From a virus (taxonomy: Duplodnaviria > Caudoviricetes), in IMG/VR virus record IMGVR_UViG_3300037067_003221, positions 32,001 through 96,000 of that record: a stretch of DNA of 64,000 nucleotides. One strand, given 5' to 3'. The position numbers and the translations under genes were made by a program. Positions within the stretch are counted from its first letter, which is position 1, and every line of letters starts with the position of its first letter. The notes under the pieces are model-generated. The model did not search any database and was not told the origin of the DNA. It saw only the letters and a program-made list of their open reading frames with translations. Positions 15,144 to 37,975 of this stretch are shown here, piece after piece.

Positions 15144-16109
15144 CTATACCATATTTTCAATGGTTGTCAAGTTTAATTTTTCCGACACCACATTATTGAA
15201 CGCCACAAGCCGCTGATTGCAGCCGTAACGGCAAACGCCATGCTTGCACGGCTCTTTGCTCTTGATACCATCCCGATACAAGTGGGAACAAGTCGATTCC
15301 TCACCATCCGGCCCGATAACCCGCTCACTCATGGAGAGGTAGCACGGCTCAGACAGATTGTTTTCGGGGAAGCGAGTACCAGCGATAAGCCGCTGTTTGC
15401 TGTCCATCGTTTCGCACAGTAACGCTAATGATTCCTCTGGCAGTAGCGATTTCATTTCCGGCACAATCCGCCAGAAAAAATTCTCAATATCTCCCGGCGA
15501 AAACACGAAATTCGGATTAGTTCCCTTGTACACCGAGAAAAACAGGGCGTACAAGTCGGGGAATACTTCATTGGAATATCGAATGAAGTCGGGCGCGTGC
15601 CGGTAGTTCTCCCTTGTCAGGGTGTACGTAATCGAAGTGACCGTATGTTTACACGCCCACTTGATATTGTTTACAACCTCATGGAAAGCGTCACGACCGA
15701 CCAAATTGTTCCAATAGGATGCGCTGCACGAATCGAGCGATACTTTCAACCGGCGAATATGCTGCGCAGGCGGGGCAATGTAGGCGTTAGTATTCAGGTG
15801 AAACTGATACTCGTTGCCATGCTCCTCGATGTAGGGGTACAGCCACGGCACAATGGACGGCTCGCCCCCGGTAATGTGGATAATCGCCGTTTTCCCGTAA
15901 GCCGCTACAATCTCTTCAAACCGCTCTTTGGAGAGGGTTTTCGGAGTCTGCGCGATATTGCAATACTTGCATCGAAAGTTGCAGCCTTCCGTAATAAACA
16001 CCGCAACCCGGCGAACGGGCGGGGCAATACCCGCGCGAACGCAGTCAACGGTTTCTTTCATCCGGGCGGCAAAGTTATCCCAATAAAGTGAGGGGCGTAT
16101 TGTGTTCAT
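15144..16109 (-). CDS. Radical SAM protein, leaderless
   Basis: CNFRCKYC, ITGGEP, C-terminal Cys cluster; ATG at 16109 lies 6 nt after TATAAT. Confidence 0.9.
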   Translation of the reverse strand: MNTIRPSLYWDNFAARMKETVDCVRAGIAPPVRRVAVFITEGCNFRCKYCNIAQTPKTLSKERFEEIVAAYGKTAIIHITGGEPSIVPWLYPYIEEHGNEYQFHLNTNAYIAPPAQHIRRLKVSLDSCSASYWNNLVGRDAFHEVVNNIKWACKHTVTSITYTLTRENYRHAPDFIRYSNEVFPDLYALFFSVYKGTNPNFVFSPGDIENFFWRIVPEMKSLLPEESLALLCETMDSKQRLIAGTRFPENNLSEPCYLSMSERVIGPDGEESTCSHLYRDGIKSKEPCKHGVCRYGCNQRLVAFNNVVSEKLNLTTIENMV

Positions 16110-16144
16110 ACTGCAATTATACCTTATTTTCAAGGGTTGTCAAG

Positions 16145-17242
16145 TTAGTCCCCAGCCTTAAAATTGTAAACCGGCTTGAGAACGTCCGTAATATCCGCCG
16201 TAGGCTCGATATTCGCTACAATCTCTTCCATTGCTTTATACGCCATAGGCGATTCATCCAACGTGTCGGGCGTAACGCTAGTGGTATAAATACCCTCCAT
16301 AGAGGCAGTAAAATCTTCCATGTTCAGCTTGCGTTTCGCTTCTTTCCGGCCCATCAACCGGCCCGCACCGTGCGGGGCTGATTGGTTCCACTCATAGTTG
16401 CCCTTACCCACGCAAAGCAAGCTACCATCCCGCATATTGATCGGCACAATAAACGGCTCACCCGCCCTTGCCGACACCGCGCCCTTTCGCAGAATGTTTT
16501 GCATATCGATGTAGTTGTGAACAGTTTGAAACTTGACAAGGCCGGTAAGCGGCACACCGAGAAGTTCCGTCACAATCCGACGAACCATTGTAACACGGTT
16601 CAGCGTTGCGTATCCCTGCACAGTCCGCATATCCGTCAAGTAATGATCTTTGAACGCGCCCGTTAAATAGCACAGGTCACGATGAATTTCAAGCCGCTCC
16701 GGGCAAAGTTCAGCGGCAAGGTGCTGATAATAATCAGCTACCTGCTTACCAAGGTTTCGGCTTCCCGAATGCACTACCAACCAAAGATCACCGGCAGTAT
16801 CGTGATTCACTTCGATGAAATGATTACCGCCGCCGAGCGAACCTAACGCAAGATCATAGTCGGCTTGTCGAATGCTCGCACCGCAATACAGGCCCGATAC
16901 ATCAAAGTGAGTCTGCGCGGTTTCATTGTTTCGGAAACCAAACGGGATTTTTTCGCGGATAAAATCGTCAAGCCGCTTCAAGTCAATCTCACGCTCGACG
17001 CGAACAACCGCCACCCCACAACCAATATCTACACCCACTAAGTTGGGGACAACCTTATCGCCCACCATCAGGGTGGTGCCGATAACGCAACCGGCCCCGG
17101 CATGGCAATCGGGCATGATACGCACCTTTGAATTAGCAGCAAACGAATGATCGATAAGTTGCTGTATCTGCGCGATAGTCGTTTCGTCCGGCGTATCCGT
17201 GAAGATTTTAGCCGCGGTGTAGCGTCCGGTAAGTTCGATCAT
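16145..17242 (-). CDS. rtcB: RNA-splicing/repair ligase RtcB
   Basis: MPDCHAG, VGVDIGCG, LGGGNHFIE, VHSGSR, HNY, SAPHGAGR and DESPMAYK motifs. Confidence 0.95.
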   Translation of the reverse strand: MIELTGRYTAAKIFTDTPDETTIAQIQQLIDHSFAANSKVRIMPDCHAGAGCVIGTTLMVGDKVVPNLVGVDIGCGVAVVRVEREIDLKRLDDFIREKIPFGFRNNETAQTHFDVSGLYCGASIRQADYDLALGSLGGGNHFIEVNHDTAGDLWLVVHSGSRNLGKQVADYYQHLAAELCPERLEIHRDLCYLTGAFKDHYLTDMRTVQGYATLNRVTMVRRIVTELLGVPLTGLVKFQTVHNYIDMQNILRKGAVSARAGEPFIVPINMRDGSLLCVGKGNYEWNQSAPHGAGRLMGRKEAKRKLNMEDFTASMEGIYTTSVTPDTLDESPMAYKAMEEIVANIEPTADITDVLKPVYNFKAGD

Positions 17243-17555: not shown

Positions 17556-17681
17556 GTAGCCGGGTGGGAGTCGAACCCACATAAGGCAACCGGCCTCTTT
17601 TGTGTTGGAGTCGAACCAACCCCCTCTTCCAGAGCTTCCCAGGGAATTGAACCCCGCACATTTTCCGCTAACGCCGACTAC
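17556..17681 (-). ncRNA. Putative tRNA-like ncRNA with three T-loop hairpins
   Basis: Closing stem GTAGTCGG/CCGGCTAC; hairpins GGG-TTCAATT-CCC, GTTGG-TTCGACT-CCAAC, GTGGG-TTCGACT-CCCAC; begins at the expected +1 of the promoter at 17688-17715. Confidence 0.7.
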
Positions 17682-25792: not shown

Positions 25793-26206
25793 TCATTTCG
25801 GGGTTCCCATAACGCCACCTTTATAGAGGCGTACTTTCGTGAAATTGAACGGGTCCGAAAACCGCTTCATATTGAACAACTGGCATAACCGGCTACGGAT
25901 AACCTCGACGGAATCATCGGCCCGGTTAATCGTTCGCATCCAACCATCCATATCGGAAGTCAGATAGAAGATTTCCCCTTCCCCGGCGATATACTCCGCA
26001 CAGATGCCGATGATTTCCTTATGGCCGTCGCCGTCAATAACGCCGATTGCCACCTTAAAATCCTTGTCATCGTCCAACGCCGACCAAATAAGGGCGGCGG
26101 GATGCTGCGAAGAATCAACCGGCTCATTGTCCTGTACCAGCACAAAGTAGGGTTCGGATACCATAAGTTCACCCGGAACGTCACAGTCTTGTAAGTGAGT
26201 AATCAT
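25793..26206 (-). CDS. Hypothetical protein, leaderless (first of a run of small genes spanning 24317-26206)
   Basis: ATG 5 nt after TATAAT; downstream ORFs overlap by ATGA. Confidence 0.6.
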   Translation of the reverse strand: MITHLQDCDVPGELMVSEPYFVLVQDNEPVDSSQHPAALIWSALDDDKDFKVAIGVIDGDGHKEIIGICAEYIAGEGEIFYLTSDMDGWMRTINRADDSVEVIRSRLCQLFNMKRFSDPFNFTKVRLYKGGVMGTPK

Positions 26207-34999: not shown

Positions 35000-36595
35000 T
35001 TAGTTCCTTACAAAGTCTGCCATAACAGCCGGGCAGGCGGCATCAAAGCCGACAACATCCAACATCCCGGCATCATTCGGATCAGCAATAGTGAATCCAG
35101 TCGCCGTGGTCCCGGCCACGATCAACTTGGCGTTAATGCCCATTTTCTGACGGTATTGCGTCAAGGCTTGGCATGGGTGAATATCACCCGACCACGTTTC
35201 ATTATCGGTATAGATAATGAAAGCATCAACTTCAATTTTATTCTCCGCTGCGTACAGCATCGGAAGGGCACAATCAGTGCGGGACATTCTGATCGACTTA
35301 ATCAAGGCAATCACTTCGCTCAATCGAGAGCAACGGTTAATGTCCATCGGACTAATACCCCCGGAAAACGCCGTAACCAGCGTTTGCGGCTCAGTCTTAG
35401 TCGTAACCATCGACATGCAAGCCGACACATCCCTAGCAGAGAGATTCGTATTGGCTACACGCTGGCTACCCATCGAACCCGATACGTCAAGGGCAACCAT
35501 GTGCCGCTTGCCAGTCGGTTCAACTGCATCGAAAGACGCATAAAACGCATCTTCCAATGCCGCCGTAATTTGAGTTACAGGGGTCCAAGTCAATGCACCA
35601 CGGAAACCGTGGCCTTGACGATAGGTGTCTTGTGCAAGCAAGATCGACAACGGATGCACGCGCGCCCGCTTCAAATCTTCCATATTCATTAGGTGTCGGC
35701 ACACCAAATTGGTTGCAGCCGACAGCGGCTTCAATAGCCCGATGCTGGACAACTTGCCGAGATTGCGAATCAAGGCAGTGGGCGGCATGTGGGGCAGCAA
35801 TTCTTCCCAAATGACCGTGCTATTAAGCAACGTATTCGGAACATGCTCGAACGACATTTGATACTTGCGAATTAAATCCGCAGCCTTACGTTCGTCGCCG
35901 GGTCCGAGTTTTTGAATTGCTTCAAACCCTTCAACGATTGCCAAAGGCGAGTTAGCAGGGATGCAAGGAATACTGCCACCCTGAGTCAGATACTTGTATA
36001 GGGCGTTTCGCACATCGCTATTGGTCCGTGGGTGCGACAGCCGCAGCGCATCGCGGTGCGTATAACCTTCACGGTTACGATACTTCGTAACTTGATAGGC
36101 CAGCCGCTCTATTGGCATAACGTCATACCAAGTGGCAACTGCATTACGCAGACCACGGCCCCAACCACGCATTTCCTTACACGCTCCGATGAATTGGAAT
36201 AAGTGCGTCGGAATACGGCACACGGTCGATAGGTGGTGCAGAGCATGGCTACGGGCAACATTGTCGCCGTGACTTGCCACAAGGGCAAGAGCGAAGATTG
36301 CCGCATCGTTCTTAGGTGCCCGGCCAGCCGAACTAATACCGGCAATAGTCTTAACCGTGCGAGACGAATCGACGGCGGCACATTCCAACACGACCTTAGC
36401 ATTATCCACAGTCATCGGGCGTTCGCCAACATAATACGAACCGCCCTCGCATCCGAGAATCAAGAACCGTTCAAGACGGGTCCAAATATCCGTTGCGAAA
36501 ACAAATCCGCCAGCGTTATTTTTGACCTGTTCGCGGCCAAAGATAGCTTGCGATTGCGAAGTTTTGCGAGACGAAACATGCTGTGCGTAACTCAT
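35000..36595 (-). CDS. rsr: Ro60/Rsr (TROVE + vWA domain) RNA-binding protein
   Basis: NNAGGFVF, RFLILG.EGGSYY, RGWGRGLR, KYRNREG, ALIRNLGK, DVSGSM (MIDAS), TDCALPM, YTDNET, GMLDVVGFD; GGAG RBS before the ATG at 36595. Confidence 0.95.
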   Translation of the reverse strand: MSYAQHVSSRKTSQSQAIFGREQVKNNAGGFVFATDIWTRLERFLILGCEGGSYYVGERPMTVDNAKVVLECAAVDSSRTVKTIAGISSAGRAPKNDAAIFALALVASHGDNVARSHALHHLSTVCRIPTHLFQFIGACKEMRGWGRGLRNAVATWYDVMPIERLAYQVTKYRNREGYTHRDALRLSHPRTNSDVRNALYKYLTQGGSIPCIPANSPLAIVEGFEAIQKLGPGDERKAADLIRKYQMSFEHVPNTLLNSTVIWEELLPHMPPTALIRNLGKLSSIGLLKPLSAATNLVCRHLMNMEDLKRARVHPLSILLAQDTYRQGHGFRGALTWTPVTQITAALEDAFYASFDAVEPTGKRHMVALDVSGSMGSQRVANTNLSARDVSACMSMVTTKTEPQTLVTAFSGGISPMDINRCSRLSEVIALIKSIRMSRTDCALPMLYAAENKIEVDAFIIYTDNETWSGDIHPCQALTQYRQKMGINAKLIVAGTTATGFTIADPNDAGMLDVVGFDAACPAVMADFVRN

Positions 36596-36617
36596 TCTTT
36601 TCTCCAAATTAAAAATT

Positions 36618-36677
36618 AGGCAAGTTAGTGGAATGGGGTGCTTCAAAACCAAATTGATAACCCATCCCGTTCGGCCC
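36618..36677 (-). ncRNA. Minimal Y-RNA-like stem-loop Y1 in the rsr 5' region
   Basis: GGGC(C)GA..GGGATGGG-TTATC-loop-CCCATTCC..TTGCCT; bulged-C helix. Confidence 0.75.
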
Positions 36678-36689
36678 AAATCACACTCA

Positions 36690-37055
36690 CTACCAGTCCA
36701 TGCGGAACGAACCAAAATTGGTGTCGATCAGCATTTCTTTGAATTGATCTTCGGTCATTGCGGCATCTTCCGGTTCGTCATGGACGAAATTCAAGAAGAA
36801 TACCCAATCATACACTTGATACCGTTCGTAATCATACGGCAAGCAAGCATCAACCCACTCACCAATTTTACCATATTCGCCCTTATGGATAACCCAAGGG
36901 GCTTTCTTCTTATCGCAAAATTGTTTCCAAACTTCAAACCGTTCGGCTAACGGGAGCGACGTATCTGTTACATACTCCCGAAGTGCGGGCTGTACATACT
37001 TATGGTACTTCTCATTGTCTTGCAAGTGCGTAATAATCTCAGTAATTTGACTCAT
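36690..37055 (-). CDS. Hypothetical protein inside the Ro60/Y-RNA locus
   Basis: GGAG RBS; lies between the Y-like RNAs and rsr. Confidence 0.65.
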   Translation of the reverse strand: MSQITEIITHLQDNEKYHKYVQPALREYVTDTSLPLAERFEVWKQFCDKKKAPWVIHKGEYGKIGEWVDACLPYDYERYQVYDWVFFLNFVHDEPEDAAMTEDQFKEMLIDTNFGSFRMDW

Positions 37056-37156
37056 ACGTTCTCCAAAAGGTAAATAAGTGACTTGGCAGTTGCGCGACGA
37101 CTGCGTTTCCCCGGTGCTACCAGGGCTTTCTTAACGTCATTGAAATACAAGTCTTT

Positions 37157-37218
37157 GCGGACTAGGTATGTCGATAGGGGGCATCATTAACAGTGATAAC
37201 CTATCAACCTCGGCCCGC
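37157..37218 (-). ncRNA. Minimal Y-RNA-like stem-loop Y2
   Basis: GCGGGCCGAG-GTTGATAGG-TTATC-loop-CCTATCGAC..GTCCGC. Confidence 0.7.
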
Positions 37219-37225
37219 ACAAACA

Positions 37226-37299
37226 GGGATACATTTGGGACTTGCACCCAATCCTACGTATTCTTCTCTACGTCGCTCTACTACTAAGCCAATATATCC
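37226..37299 (-). ncRNA. Pseudo-tRNA with an 8-nt purine-only anticodon loop
   Basis: Acceptor GGATATA/TGTATCC, D arm, ACGTA-GAGAAGAA-TACGT, TTGGG-TGCAAGT-CCCAA. Confidence 0.6.
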
Positions 37300-37330
37300 G
37301 GGGACTCTATAGCGTCCCGCACAAAAGGGT

Positions 37331-37463
37331 TGGGCGTGAATGGGACTCGAACCCATACTGTTCCTTTGATAATGGATAACGCTTTACCGTCGGCCCGCGA
37401 TATACTCAGCCGGGCAAAAGGTGGCAAAACGGTTTAACGTGCTGCCATTACACTATCACGCCC
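37331..37463 (-). ncRNA. tRNA/Y-RNA chimera Y3 (Ro-binding helix replaces the anticodon arm)
   Basis: 8-bp acceptor GGGCGTGA/TCACGCCC, D arm TAGTGTAATGGCAGCAC, T arm ATGGG-TTCGAGT-CCCAT, internal CGTTTTGCC..TTGCCCG / CGGGC(C)GA..GGTAAAGCG-TTATC. Confidence 0.8.
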
Positions 37464-37800
37464 ATAAATTCAATTACTGTAACTGCTGTTTAGCTTGTGT
37501 TAACGCAGCAGCTTTCTGGTGATTCAATACCGCAAGCCGAATATCTTCATATTCAAACCCACTAATATACCCGTCGTCCATTGCAGTTTTTACTAGTTGC
37601 TGAACACAGGGATTATTGTCGCGTAATACTCGCACTTCATTGTAGCGATCGGATGAAATTTCTAGGCTCTGCTCGAATGAAATCAAACCAATAATCAACG
37701 CAACGATCCACAGACTGATTAAATTAAATACACTCTCTAAAATCGCGTCCAGAGACTTAAAAATTTTATTCATTTTTTGCTCAACCTTTCTTAAATTCAG

Positions 37801-37884
37801 TACCGAAGGTGGGAGTCGAACCCACACGGTCCTTCGACCACTGGTTTCTAAGACCAGCGCGGCTTCCAGTTACGCCACTTCGGC
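37801..37884 (-). tRNA. tRNA-Leu(TAG)
   Basis: CTGGT-CTTAGAA-ACCAG; long variable arm. Confidence 0.92.
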
Positions 37885-37891
37885 TCATAAG

Positions 37892-37975
37892 TACCGGAAG
37901 AGGGACTCGAACCCACACGGCCTTTCGACCCCCTGCTCTTGAGGCAGGCGCGGCTCCCAATTACGCCATTCCGGC
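37892..37975 (-). tRNA. tRNA-Leu(CAA)
   Basis: CCTGC-CTCAAGA-GCAGG; long variable arm. Confidence 0.92.

What the first reader, a model, noticed from the sequence alone, without database searches (positions are those of the whole stretch)
35000..37463. Phage Ro60 locus with an array of at least three different Y-like RNAs and a pseudo-tRNA
Seen: upstream of a full-length Ro60/TROVE gene lie Y3 (37331-37463), a pseudo-tRNA (37226-37299), Y2 (37157-37218), a further two-hairpin element (~37076-37142), a 121-aa ORF and Y1 (36618-36677). Y1, Y2 and Y3 share GGGCCGA, an 8-9 bp upper stem whose sequence differs but whose pairing is kept (GGGATGGG/CCCATTCC, GTTGATAGG/CCTATCGAC, GGTAAAGCG/CGTTTTGCC), and an invariant TTATC. 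Established: Ro60 binds Y RNAs through a bulged helix, Y RNAs tether effectors such as PNPase, and rsr is often linked to rtcB. Inference: a modular phage RNP system in which one Ro60 is loaded with several RNAs, including ~60-nt minimal Y RNAs lacking any tRNA domain.
Basis: partly seen in the sequence, partly recalled or inferred. Interest (0 to 1): 0.85.

Follow-up and report, generated by a model that had tools for sequence, protein, structure and literature searches.

The report
Phage Ro60 gene with Y-RNA array
A 147-kb groundwater phage carries a Ro60 gene preceded by two short Y RNAs and a tRNA-shaped RNA whose anticodon arm carries a Ro60-binding stem; that third RNA belongs to a conserved class, found here in many phages and bacteria and not described in the papers I could read.

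Summary
Upstream of a full-length Ro60/TROVE gene (35000-36595, minus strand) lie Y1, Y2 and Y3 at the stated coordinates. Y1 and Y2 give sub-threshold Rfam hits to metazoan Y RNA and nematode sbRNA.

A covariance model of such hairpins finds 87 hits in 51 sources (50 phage Ro60 loci plus this window) and 72 in 80 bacterial loci. Every hit is on the Ro60 strand.

Several Y RNAs beside a phage Ro60 gene is a known arrangement (Chen 2014; Thermus phage phiLo 2025).

It has free acceptor ends, D and T arms, and a loop-capped Ro60-binding stem branching from the anticodon stem. This is the reverse topology of YrlA.

A second model finds this chimera in at least 14 phage loci and 46 of 80 bacterial Ro60 loci. 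Across 73 copies, 92.9% of cells are paired and 34 of 37 pairs show compensatory changes. I found no description of it in the literature I could read.

The apical loops of the short Y RNAs are anticodon-loop-like. The pseudo-tRNA is real but non-canonical. The "two-hairpin element" is unsupported.

No expression or binding data exist. Other first-stage notes on this same genome had already flagged the chimera; I consulted none from other DNA.

The parts
35000..36595 (-). Ro60/Rsr gene (531 aa, ATG at 36595)
   Evidence: Pfam TROVE 3e-44 and vWA_Ro60 2.6e-65. Full-length match to vertebrate Ro60 (9nen, 1yvp; E 1e-122 and 3e-120) and to D. radiodurans Rsr (2nvo; 6.5e-114). Only 2e-6 to phiLo phage Ro60.
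36615..36680 (-). Y1: short Y RNA hairpin ending 19 nt before the Ro60 ATG. It has the GGGCCGAACG motif, an 8-bp upper stem and an apical 4-bp stem with a 7-nt loop.
   Evidence: Model R1 47.8 bits (it is a training member). Rfam Y_RNA 27.9 bits, E 0.0045. It fits the published motif GNCGAAN0-1G (PMC4201824).
36690..37055 (-). 121-aa ORF embedded in the array
   Evidence: Pfam DUF7020, 27.6 bits against a cut-off of 25. Unrelated to the 102-aa ORF at the same position in L001.
37076..37142 (-). Two small hairpins of doubtful significance; not Y-like
   Evidence: Fold z = -0.7. No R1 or R2 hit. A landfill relative has 10 substitutions and 1 deletion across 37102-37152, mostly in the linkers between the hairpins.
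37156..37219 (-). Y2: short Y RNA hairpin with a 9-bp upper stem and the apical loop CUGUUAA
   Evidence: R1 51.1 bits (training member). Rfam sbRNA 28.2 bits. Fold z = -4.1. Natural variants at 37170 and 37172 keep the pairing.
37226..37299 (-). Non-canonical tRNA-like element ending 6 nt before Y2. It has an 8-nt 'anticodon' loop GAGAAGAA and T loop UGCAAGU, and its D loop lacks GG.
   Evidence: Cloverleaf minimum-free-energy fold. R2 tRNA-core alignment at 35.8 bits. Not called by ARAGORN or Rfam tRNA.
37301..37318 (-). Small hairpin GGGAC/GUCCC between Y3 and the pseudo-tRNA. It is preceded by UUUGUGCGGG, the same words that open Y2.
   Evidence: Read from the sequence and the fold.
37332..37462 (-). 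Y3: tRNA-topology Y RNA chimera. Parts in order: 7-bp acceptor stem, D arm, 2-bp junction helix (27-28:42-43), Y 3' strand (37431-37411), 13-nt cap loop, Y 5' strand (37399-37375), short anticodon-like hairpin, T arm.
   Evidence: Rfam tRNA 41 bits. ARAGORN with introns allowed. R2 103 bits. Four natural variants are all compatible with the structure.
37476..37503 (-). Promoter-like site TTAACA-16-TACAGT just upstream of Y3
   Evidence: Consensus scan. The number of such sites in the region is no higher than in shuffles, so this is only a candidate.
37800..37975 (-). Two tRNA-Leu genes upstream of the array
   Evidence: ARAGORN and Rfam.
16145..17242 (-). RtcB RNA ligase gene, 19 kb from Ro60 in the same phage
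   Evidence: Pfam RtcB 1.1e-60.

Best explanation
This is a phage Ro60 ribonucleoprotein operon.

Inferred steps:
1. A transcript starting upstream of Y3 runs through Y3, the tRNA-like element, Y2, a small ORF, Y1 and the Ro60 gene.
2. Host tRNA-processing enzymes (RNase P at the 5' side; RNase Z or exonucleases plus CCA-adding enzyme at the 3' side) cut at the two tRNA-shaped elements and so release the RNAs.
3. Ro60 binds the conserved bulged helix (GGGC-C-GA paired with UU-GCCC) that all three RNAs share.
4. Each RNA then presents a different tRNA-like part to host factors. Y1 and Y2 present an anticodon-arm-like hairpin. Y3 presents a whole L-shaped tRNA body with a free acceptor end.
5. 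The likely purpose is to tether or titrate tRNA-recognising host proteins during infection. Candidates are PNPase, which was shown to assemble with Ro60 and Yrl RNAs for phage phiLo, and anticodon nucleases or tRNA-processing enzymes. This would act alongside the phage's own tRNA set and RtcB ligase.

Shown here: the RNA structures, their conservation and their linkage to Ro60. Inferred: transcription, processing, Ro60 binding and the host partners.
For: Identity of Y1 and Y2:
- Rfam Y_RNA and sbRNA are their best hits.
- Model R1 gives 87 hits in 51 sources (50 phage Ro60 loci plus this window), all on the Ro60 strand. Nearly all lie within 1 kb upstream or just downstream of the gene.
- R1 gives 72 hits in 80 bacterial loci, all on the Ro60 strand.
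- In the 64-kb window R1 hits only Y1, Y2 and, weakly, Y3.
- The lower helix is 93-96% paired, with compensatory changes.

Enrichment next to TROVE genes:
- In a motif scan of all viral contigs, 10 of 80 loci held a TROVE gene, including all 7 loci with two or more motifs.
- Of 15 loci confirmed by the model, 12 have a TROVE gene on the contig. The other 3 are incomplete records.

Y3:
- Rfam tRNA 41 bits.
- 73 homologous chimeras have 92.9% of cells paired, against 70.3% when shuffled and 38-46% when slid. 34 of 37 pairs show compensatory changes.
- Natural variants in Y2 and Y3 keep the pairing.

Anticodon-like loops: 24 of 65 short Y hairpins have a 7-nt apical loop, and 19 of them have U at position 2 and a purine at position 6. 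The null expectation is 0.96 +/- 0.9.

Processing:
- Y hairpins sit 5-8 nt from tRNA genes in Gordonia phage Boopy.
- Y2 starts 6 nt after the pseudo-tRNA.
- M. smegmatis YrlA is cut by RNase P and gains CCA (PMC4201824).

Function:
- phiLo Ro60 binds two upstream Yrl RNAs and host PNPase (PMC12135203).
- A competitive-inhibitor role for YrlA against an anticodon nuclease has been proposed (PMC7790460).
Against: - No transcript, RNA end, Ro60 binding or host partner has been observed for this phage.
- Y1 alone does not fold better than shuffled sequence (z = -0.7).
- Y1 and Y2 fall below Rfam's gathering scores.
- Y2 and Y3 each depart by one base from the published motif GNCGAAN0-1G.
- The promoter-like site is not statistically distinguishable from chance, and no terminator was found.
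- In Y3 a loop closes the Ro60-binding stem at the end where Y RNAs normally have their termini. Whether Ro60 tolerates this is unknown.
- The alignments behind searches were fitted to the models, which favours pairing.
Confidence: 0.78

Rival explanations
1. Y3-type elements are split-stem tRNA genes. The Y module would be an intron-like insert between nucleotides 28 and 29 of the anticodon stem. It would be cut out and the ends rejoined (for example by RtcB), giving a working tRNA plus a free mini-Y hairpin.
For: Removing the insert on paper leaves a regular 5-bp anticodon stem and a 7-nt loop with U33 and R37 in most copies: L005, L012, L046, L054, L029 and L052. The junction helix 27-28:42-43 covaries. 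The phage encodes RtcB. Wang et al. raised processing of YrlA towards a tRNA as a possibility (bioRxiv 10.1101/312249).
Against: No bacterial endonuclease for such a site is known. Canonical-topology YrlAs in the same loci keep the same small hairpin and junction although their acceptor stem is closed, so the hairpin is a family feature rather than a sign of splicing. The window's copy would have an A31-A39 mismatch and the anticodon AUC. The 'anticodons' vary without pattern. The insert itself is conserved as a Ro60-type helix, which argues that it functions in the mature RNA.
Confidence: 0.07
2. Y1 is mainly a cis-acting leader of the Ro60 mRNA. Free Ro60 would bind it and so regulate its own synthesis. 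It would not be a released trans-acting Y RNA. This can coexist with the main explanation.
For: Y1 ends 19 nt before the ATG and about 10 nt before the GGAG ribosome-binding site. In at least 20 phage loci the last Y hairpin ends 20-110 nt before the Ro60 start. No promoter-like site lies between Y1 and the gene.
Against: In other loci the Y hairpins lie downstream of Ro60 or inside tRNA arrays, for example L011, L044 and Boopy. Proximity to the start codon is therefore not required. No structure that sequesters the ribosome-binding site was found.
Confidence: 0.12
3. The hairpins are generic repeats, terminators or chance motifs that merely sit near Ro60.
For: Y1's fold energy is unremarkable. 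One further motif copy lies inside an ORF.
Against: All 159 R1 hits in the Ro60 loci and this window are on the Ro60 strand. There is covariation, similarity to Rfam Y RNA and no U-tract terminators.
Confidence: 0.02

Closest known systems
YrlA (Salmonella, M. smegmatis; Chen 2014 PMC4201824; Wang 2018 bioRxiv 10.1101/312249)
   Same: Encoded beside Ro60. A Ro60-binding helix is joined to a tRNA-like body with D and T arms, and the helix occupies the anticodon-stem position. M. smegmatis YrlA even gains a free CCA end after RNase P cleavage.
   Different: YrlA has its ends in the Ro60-binding stem and a loop-closed acceptor stem, so it is a circularly permuted tRNA. Y3 and its 72 relatives have free acceptor ends and a loop-capped Ro60 stem, so they keep tRNA gene order. 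They also carry a short anticodon-like hairpin at the junction.
Thermus phage phiLo Yrl1/Yrl2 with phage Ro60 (PMC12135203)
   Same: A phage Ro60 gene with several short Y-like RNAs directly upstream. Ro60 binding and assembly with host PNPase were shown experimentally.
   Different: The phiLo Ro60 protein is only distantly related (E 2e-6). The paper reports no tRNA-shaped partner.
Metazoan Y RNAs (RF00019) and nematode sbRNAs (RF01656)
   Same: The 5' strand UGGGCCGAAC..GGGUUAUC nearly matches the metazoan consensus UGGUCCGAAgg..GGGUUAUC, with a bulged C and a stem-internal loop-stem layout.
   Different: Scores are below the gathering thresholds. The RNAs are shorter, lack a polyuridine tail, and belong to a bacterial-type operon.
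D. radiodurans Yrn1
   Same: A Y RNA with tRNA-like features in which the arms follow tRNA order relative to the ends (PMC4201824).
   Different: In Yrn1 the Ro60-binding stem takes the place of the acceptor stem. In Y3 it takes the place of the anticodon arm, and the acceptor stem is free.
Circularly permuted tRNA genes of algae and archaea
   Same: They show that tRNA and permuted-tRNA gene orders can interconvert (discussed in bioRxiv 10.1101/312249).
   Different: Those genes are processed into ordinary tRNAs. Nothing here indicates that.

Membership tests
Y RNA (Ro60-associated RNA) | Encoded next to a Ro60/TROVE gene | tested here: met
   Y1, Y2 and Y3 lie 19-870 nt upstream of Ro60 on the same strand. 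The same holds in 50 phage and 80 bacterial Ro60 loci.
Y RNA (Ro60-associated RNA) | Bulged helix with the conserved 5'-strand motif GNCGAAN0-1G (Chen 2014) | tested here: met
   Y1 (GCCGAACG) fits exactly. Y2 (GCCGAGG) and Y3 (GCCGACG) each differ at one base. The bulged C and the G-U/A-U pairs are present in all three. The lower helix is 93-96% paired across homologues.
Y RNA (Ro60-associated RNA) | Reaches the Rfam Y_RNA (RF00019) gathering score | tested here: not met
   Y1 scores 27.9 bits against 38. Y2's best hit is sbRNA RF01656 at 28.2 bits against 38.
Y RNA (Ro60-associated RNA) | Physically bound by Ro60 | not testable with these tools
   Needs gel-shift or immunoprecipitation experiments.
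YrlA | tRNA-like domain with D and T arms and conserved elbow nucleotides | tested here: met
   Y3 matches Rfam tRNA at 41 bits with a GG-containing D loop (AAUGGCA) and T loop UUCGAGU. D stems are 99.7% and T stems 100% paired in 73 homologues.
YrlA | 5' and 3' ends form the Ro60-binding stem, and the acceptor stem is closed by a loop | tested here: not met
   In Y3 the Y 3' strand precedes the Y 5' strand and a 13-nt loop joins them. The acceptor strands are at the two ends. The same order holds in 73 copies, where the cap loop has a median length of 6 nt.
tRNA (RF00005) | Cloverleaf that passes the Rfam gathering score | tested here: met
   Y3 scores 41 bits against 29. The chimeras in L005, L012 and L054 also pass.
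tRNA (RF00005) | Continuous 5-bp anticodon stem with a 7-nt loop, called by a standard tRNA finder | tested here: not met
   A 73-nt insert interrupts the anticodon arm. ARAGORN calls Y3 only when introns are allowed.
tRNA (pseudo-tRNA 37226-37299) | Recognised by ARAGORN or Rfam tRNA; canonical D and T loops and a 7-nt anticodon loop | tested here: not met
   No ARAGORN call and no Rfam hit at E 10 or below. It has an 8-nt loop, G18 changed to A and U55 changed to G. The cloverleaf stems are intact.

The most novel reading that the evidence does not exclude
The tRNA-topology Ro60-stem RNAs are a widespread class of Y RNA, found here in at least 14 phage and 46 of 80 bacterial Ro60 loci and absent from the literature I could read. 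Under this reading three things would hold. First, their free acceptor end is matured like a tRNA's, by RNase P and CCA addition. Second, they serve as Ro60-tethered tRNA decoys or tethers in conflicts over tRNA cleavage. Third, they are the form from which the permuted YrlA arose, by tandem duplication of a chimera; this would give the 'dimeric tRNA' origin model a concrete intermediate.
Probability: 0.3. Interest if true: 0.85.

Novelty: new variant of a known kind. Interest (0 to 1): 0.72.

Why it matters
Why bacterial and phage Y RNAs imitate tRNA, and which partners they recruit, is still an open question. A second tRNA-like Y RNA architecture is conserved and more common than canonical YrlA among this Ro60's closest relatives, and it changes what can be tested.

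- These RNAs have a free acceptor end. RNase P cleavage, CCA addition and even charging can therefore be assayed directly.
- They display anticodon-like loops, which fits the proposed role as competitors of anticodon nucleases.
- They offer a simple route to YrlA's permuted order.
- They may explain why Chen et al. found few YrlAs in delta-proteobacteria, since Sorangium and its relatives carry the tRNA-order form.
- For phage biology, the locus adds a Ro60 particle with several RNA adaptors to the set of tRNA-centred counter-measures (phage tRNAs, RtcB).

Tried and rejected
- Expression: no RNA holder is listed for this stretch. The one possible RNA run laid nothing on it. Nothing can be said about expression.
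- Rfam: no family matched the canonical YrlAs in related loci, so membership in YrlA could not be scored with a curated model.
- Fourth motif copy (25898-25923): it lies inside an ORF and model R1 does not hit it, so I rejected it as a Y RNA.
- Two-hairpin element (37076-37142): no support from fold energy or from either model.
- ORFs embedded in the arrays of the window and of L001: unrelated to each other.
- The gene downstream of L001's Ro60: an ATP-dependent ligase-like gene, not RtcB.
- Plain nucleotide search of the phage collection: it found only the conserved 3' end of Ro60 genes.
- Literature gaps: the supplements of Chen 2014 and the reviews by Sim and Wolin (2018, 2020) are not held. 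A mention of the tRNA-order form there cannot be excluded.
- MAFFT misaligned the upper stem (62% paired). Model-based realignment raised this only modestly for the short Y RNAs (68%).
Full report
**Setting.** The window is bases 32001-96000 of a 147-kb virus record that CheckV rates as complete. Its best DNA holder is a groundwater metagenome. Genes in the region run on the minus strand. The ORF at 35000-36595 is a full-length Ro60, matching Pfam TROVE and vWA_Ro60. It aligns end to end with vertebrate Ro60 (E 1e-122) and D. radiodurans Rsr (6.5e-114), but only weakly with the one solved phage Ro60, from phiLo (2e-6). The window also holds 12 tRNA genes and an RtcB ligase gene at 16145-17242.

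**Checking the observation.**
- GGGCCGA-N8-14-TTATC occurs four times against 0.05 expected. Three copies are Y1, Y2 and Y3. The fourth lies inside an ORF and no model hits it.
- Rfam's best sub-threshold hits are metazoan Y RNA for Y1 (27.9 bits) and the nematode Y homologue sbRNA for Y2 (28.2 bits). The alignments cover the bulged lower helix and the GGGUUAUC motif.
- Y3 (37332-37462) passes Rfam's tRNA gathering score (41 against 29 bits), with 73 nt in place of the anticodon arm.

**What Y3 is.** Within the 73-nt insert, the Y 3' strand (CGUUUUGCC..UUGCCCG) comes first. A 13-nt loop follows, and then the Y 5' strand (CGGGCCGACGGUAAAGCGUUAUC). The Ro60-type helix is therefore capped at the end where Y RNAs normally have their termini, and the RNA's own ends lie in a 7-bp acceptor stem.

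This is the reverse of YrlA, which the literature describes as a circularly permuted tRNA with a closed acceptor loop (bioRxiv 10.1101/312249; PMC4201824).

A 2-bp helix (positions 27-28 with 42-43) and a short hairpin with a 7-nt loop complete a three-way junction. In effect the Y helix branches from the 5' strand of the anticodon stem.

**Is the chimera a conserved RNA class?**
- ARAGORN with introns allowed finds similar "tRNAs" just upstream of Ro60 in many of 55 viral Ro60 loci.
- An eight-sequence alignment supports the acceptor, D, T and lower Y helices with compensatory changes.
- A covariance model built from it (R2) separates chimeras (60-122 bits, 118-175 nt) from ordinary tRNAs (at most about 53 bits, about 77 nt).
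- R2 finds chimeras in at least 14 distinct viral loci and in 46 of the 80 bacterial Ro60 loci closest to this protein. These include complete Sorangium and Minicystis genomes, and Kofleriaceae, Gemmatimonadota, Isosphaeraceae, Brocadia and Fimbriimonadales assemblies. Every hit is on the Ro60 strand.
- Across 73 copies, 92.9% of cells are paired, against 70.3% when shuffled and 38-46% when the partners are slid. 34 of 37 pairs show compensatory changes, and the junction helix is 94% paired. The alignment was fitted to the model, but the slid controls and the independent eight-sequence MAFFT result (86% against 68%) point the same way.
- The cap loop has a median length of 6 nt. CCA is encoded in 7 of the 73 copies.
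- Canonical-order YrlAs and short Y RNAs occur in the same loci; L005 and L012 have all three forms.

**The short Y RNAs.**
- A model of the plain hairpin (R1) hits only Y1, Y2 and, weakly, Y3 in the 64-kb window.
- It gives 87 hits in 51 sources (50 viral Ro60 loci plus this window) and 72 hits in 80 bacterial loci. All 159 are on the Ro60 strand. In the viral loci they mostly lie within 1 kb upstream or just downstream of the gene.
- Arrays of 2-8 copies are common.
- An unbiased motif scan of all viral contigs returned 80 loci, of which 10 held a TROVE gene, including all 7 loci with several motifs. Of 15 loci confirmed by R1, 12 have a TROVE gene on the contig; the other three records are 18-60% complete.

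**Anticodon-like loops.** Prompted by another first-stage note, I tested the apical loops. Of 65 distinct short Y hairpins, 24 have a 7-nt loop (null 4.6 +/- 2.0). Of those, 19 have U at position 2 and a purine at position 6, the anticodon-loop signature (null 0.96 +/- 0.9, maximum 4). The small hairpin at the junction of chimeras and YrlAs has the same form. The "anticodons" vary widely.

**Natural variation.** Contigs from a landfill and a wetland sample carry near-identical relatives.
- In Y3's upper stem, A37384 becomes G (A-U to G-U) and U37429 becomes C (G-U to G-C).
- In Y2, G37172 becomes A (U-G to U-A) and C37170 becomes U (G-C to G-U).
- Two further Y3 changes fall in an internal loop and in the D loop.

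All of these changes keep the structure.

**The other elements.**
- Pseudo-tRNA (37226-37299): it has four intact stems and aligns to the tRNA core of the chimera model (35.8 bits). It has an 8-nt loop, a D loop with A in place of G18, and a T loop with G in place of U55. Standard tools do not call it. It ends 6 nt before Y2.
- Gordonia phage Boopy: two unannotated Y hairpins sit 3-8 nt from annotated tRNA and tmRNA genes. This fits release of Y RNAs by tRNA-processing enzymes.
- Two-hairpin element: no support.
- Transcription signals: one promoter-like site lies just upstream of Y3 and no terminator was found. Neither scan is significant.

**What is known, and what is not.**
- Y RNAs beside Ro60 in more than 250 bacteria and phages, several per locus, and their resemblance to tRNA were all reported in 2014 (PMC4201824).
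- A phage Ro60 that binds two upstream Y-like RNAs and host PNPase was shown in 2025 (PMC12135203).
- The array as such is therefore a new member of a known kind.
- The tRNA-order chimera appears in none of the papers I could read. Chen et al. noted that they found few YrlAs in delta-proteobacteria, which is where I find the tRNA-order form.
- The supplements of that paper and two reviews were not available.

**Mechanism.** I commit to an operon whose RNAs are released by tRNA-processing enzymes, bound by Ro60 through the shared helix, and used as adaptors that present tRNA parts to host proteins. PNPase tethering has direct precedent. Competition with anticodon nucleases was proposed for YrlA (PMC7790460) and fits the anticodon-like loops, the phage tRNA set and RtcB. 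Everything beyond structure, conservation and linkage is inference.

**Earlier notes.** Other first-stage notes on this same genome already named the permuted chimera, the anticodon-like loops, the leader idea for Y1 and the odd tRNA mimic. I had reached the chimera reading from the Rfam alignment before seeing them, and I tested the loops afterwards.

Noticed in passing
window 15144-17242 (-): The RtcB RNA ligase gene (365 aa) is immediately followed by a radical-SAM protein gene (329 aa). tRNA-Ser lies just upstream at 17556-17645.
   Followed up: partly
L259 2043-2111 and 2611-2674 (Gordonia phage Boopy MK894436.1, about 88532-88600 and 89100-89163): Two unannotated Y-like hairpins (R1 39.8 and 30.4 bits) fill gaps in the tRNA/tmRNA array downstream of the annotated Ro-like gene. 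This is a cultured system in which the RNAs could be tested.
   Followed up: partly
L260 237-368 (Streptomyces phage Samisti12 MF347639.1): A 132-nt R2 hit (46.7 bits) lies in an unannotated gap between tRNA-Gly and tRNA-Leu. It may be a divergent chimera.
   Followed up: no
L103 and L110 (465-kb and 277-kb viral contigs): Several Y hairpins are scattered over 6 kb among tRNA genes rather than clustered beside Ro60. The 465-kb contig has its TROVE gene elsewhere. None was found on the 60%-complete 277-kb record.
   Followed up: partly
window 37310-37327 and 37208-37228 (-): The words UUUGUGCGGG(A/C)C occur twice: once opening Y2 and once opening the small hairpin after Y3. This may be the remnant of a decayed Y copy.
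   Followed up: no
window 37226-37299 (-): In the pseudo-tRNA, both partners of the tertiary pair G18-U55 are changed (to A18 and G55), while G19-C56 is kept. This may be a co-ordinated change in the elbow.
   Followed up: no
window 37474-37827 (-): The 117-aa ORF from the GTG start overlaps tRNA-Leu (37800-37884). Its real start must lie further downstream, or it is not a gene.
   Followed up: no
L238 (Isosphaeraceae MAG) and L179 (Candidatus Brocadia MAG): The best bacterial chimera match (107.6 bits) and the best bacterial Ro60 match (52% identity) are both in Planctomycetota. This is a weak hint about the host, in line with earlier notes.
   Followed up: no
L044 5840-6912; L229 1238-2143: Four tRNA-order chimeras stand in tandem. 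This is the arrangement from which a permuted YrlA could arise by reading from the middle of one copy to the middle of the next.
   Followed up: no
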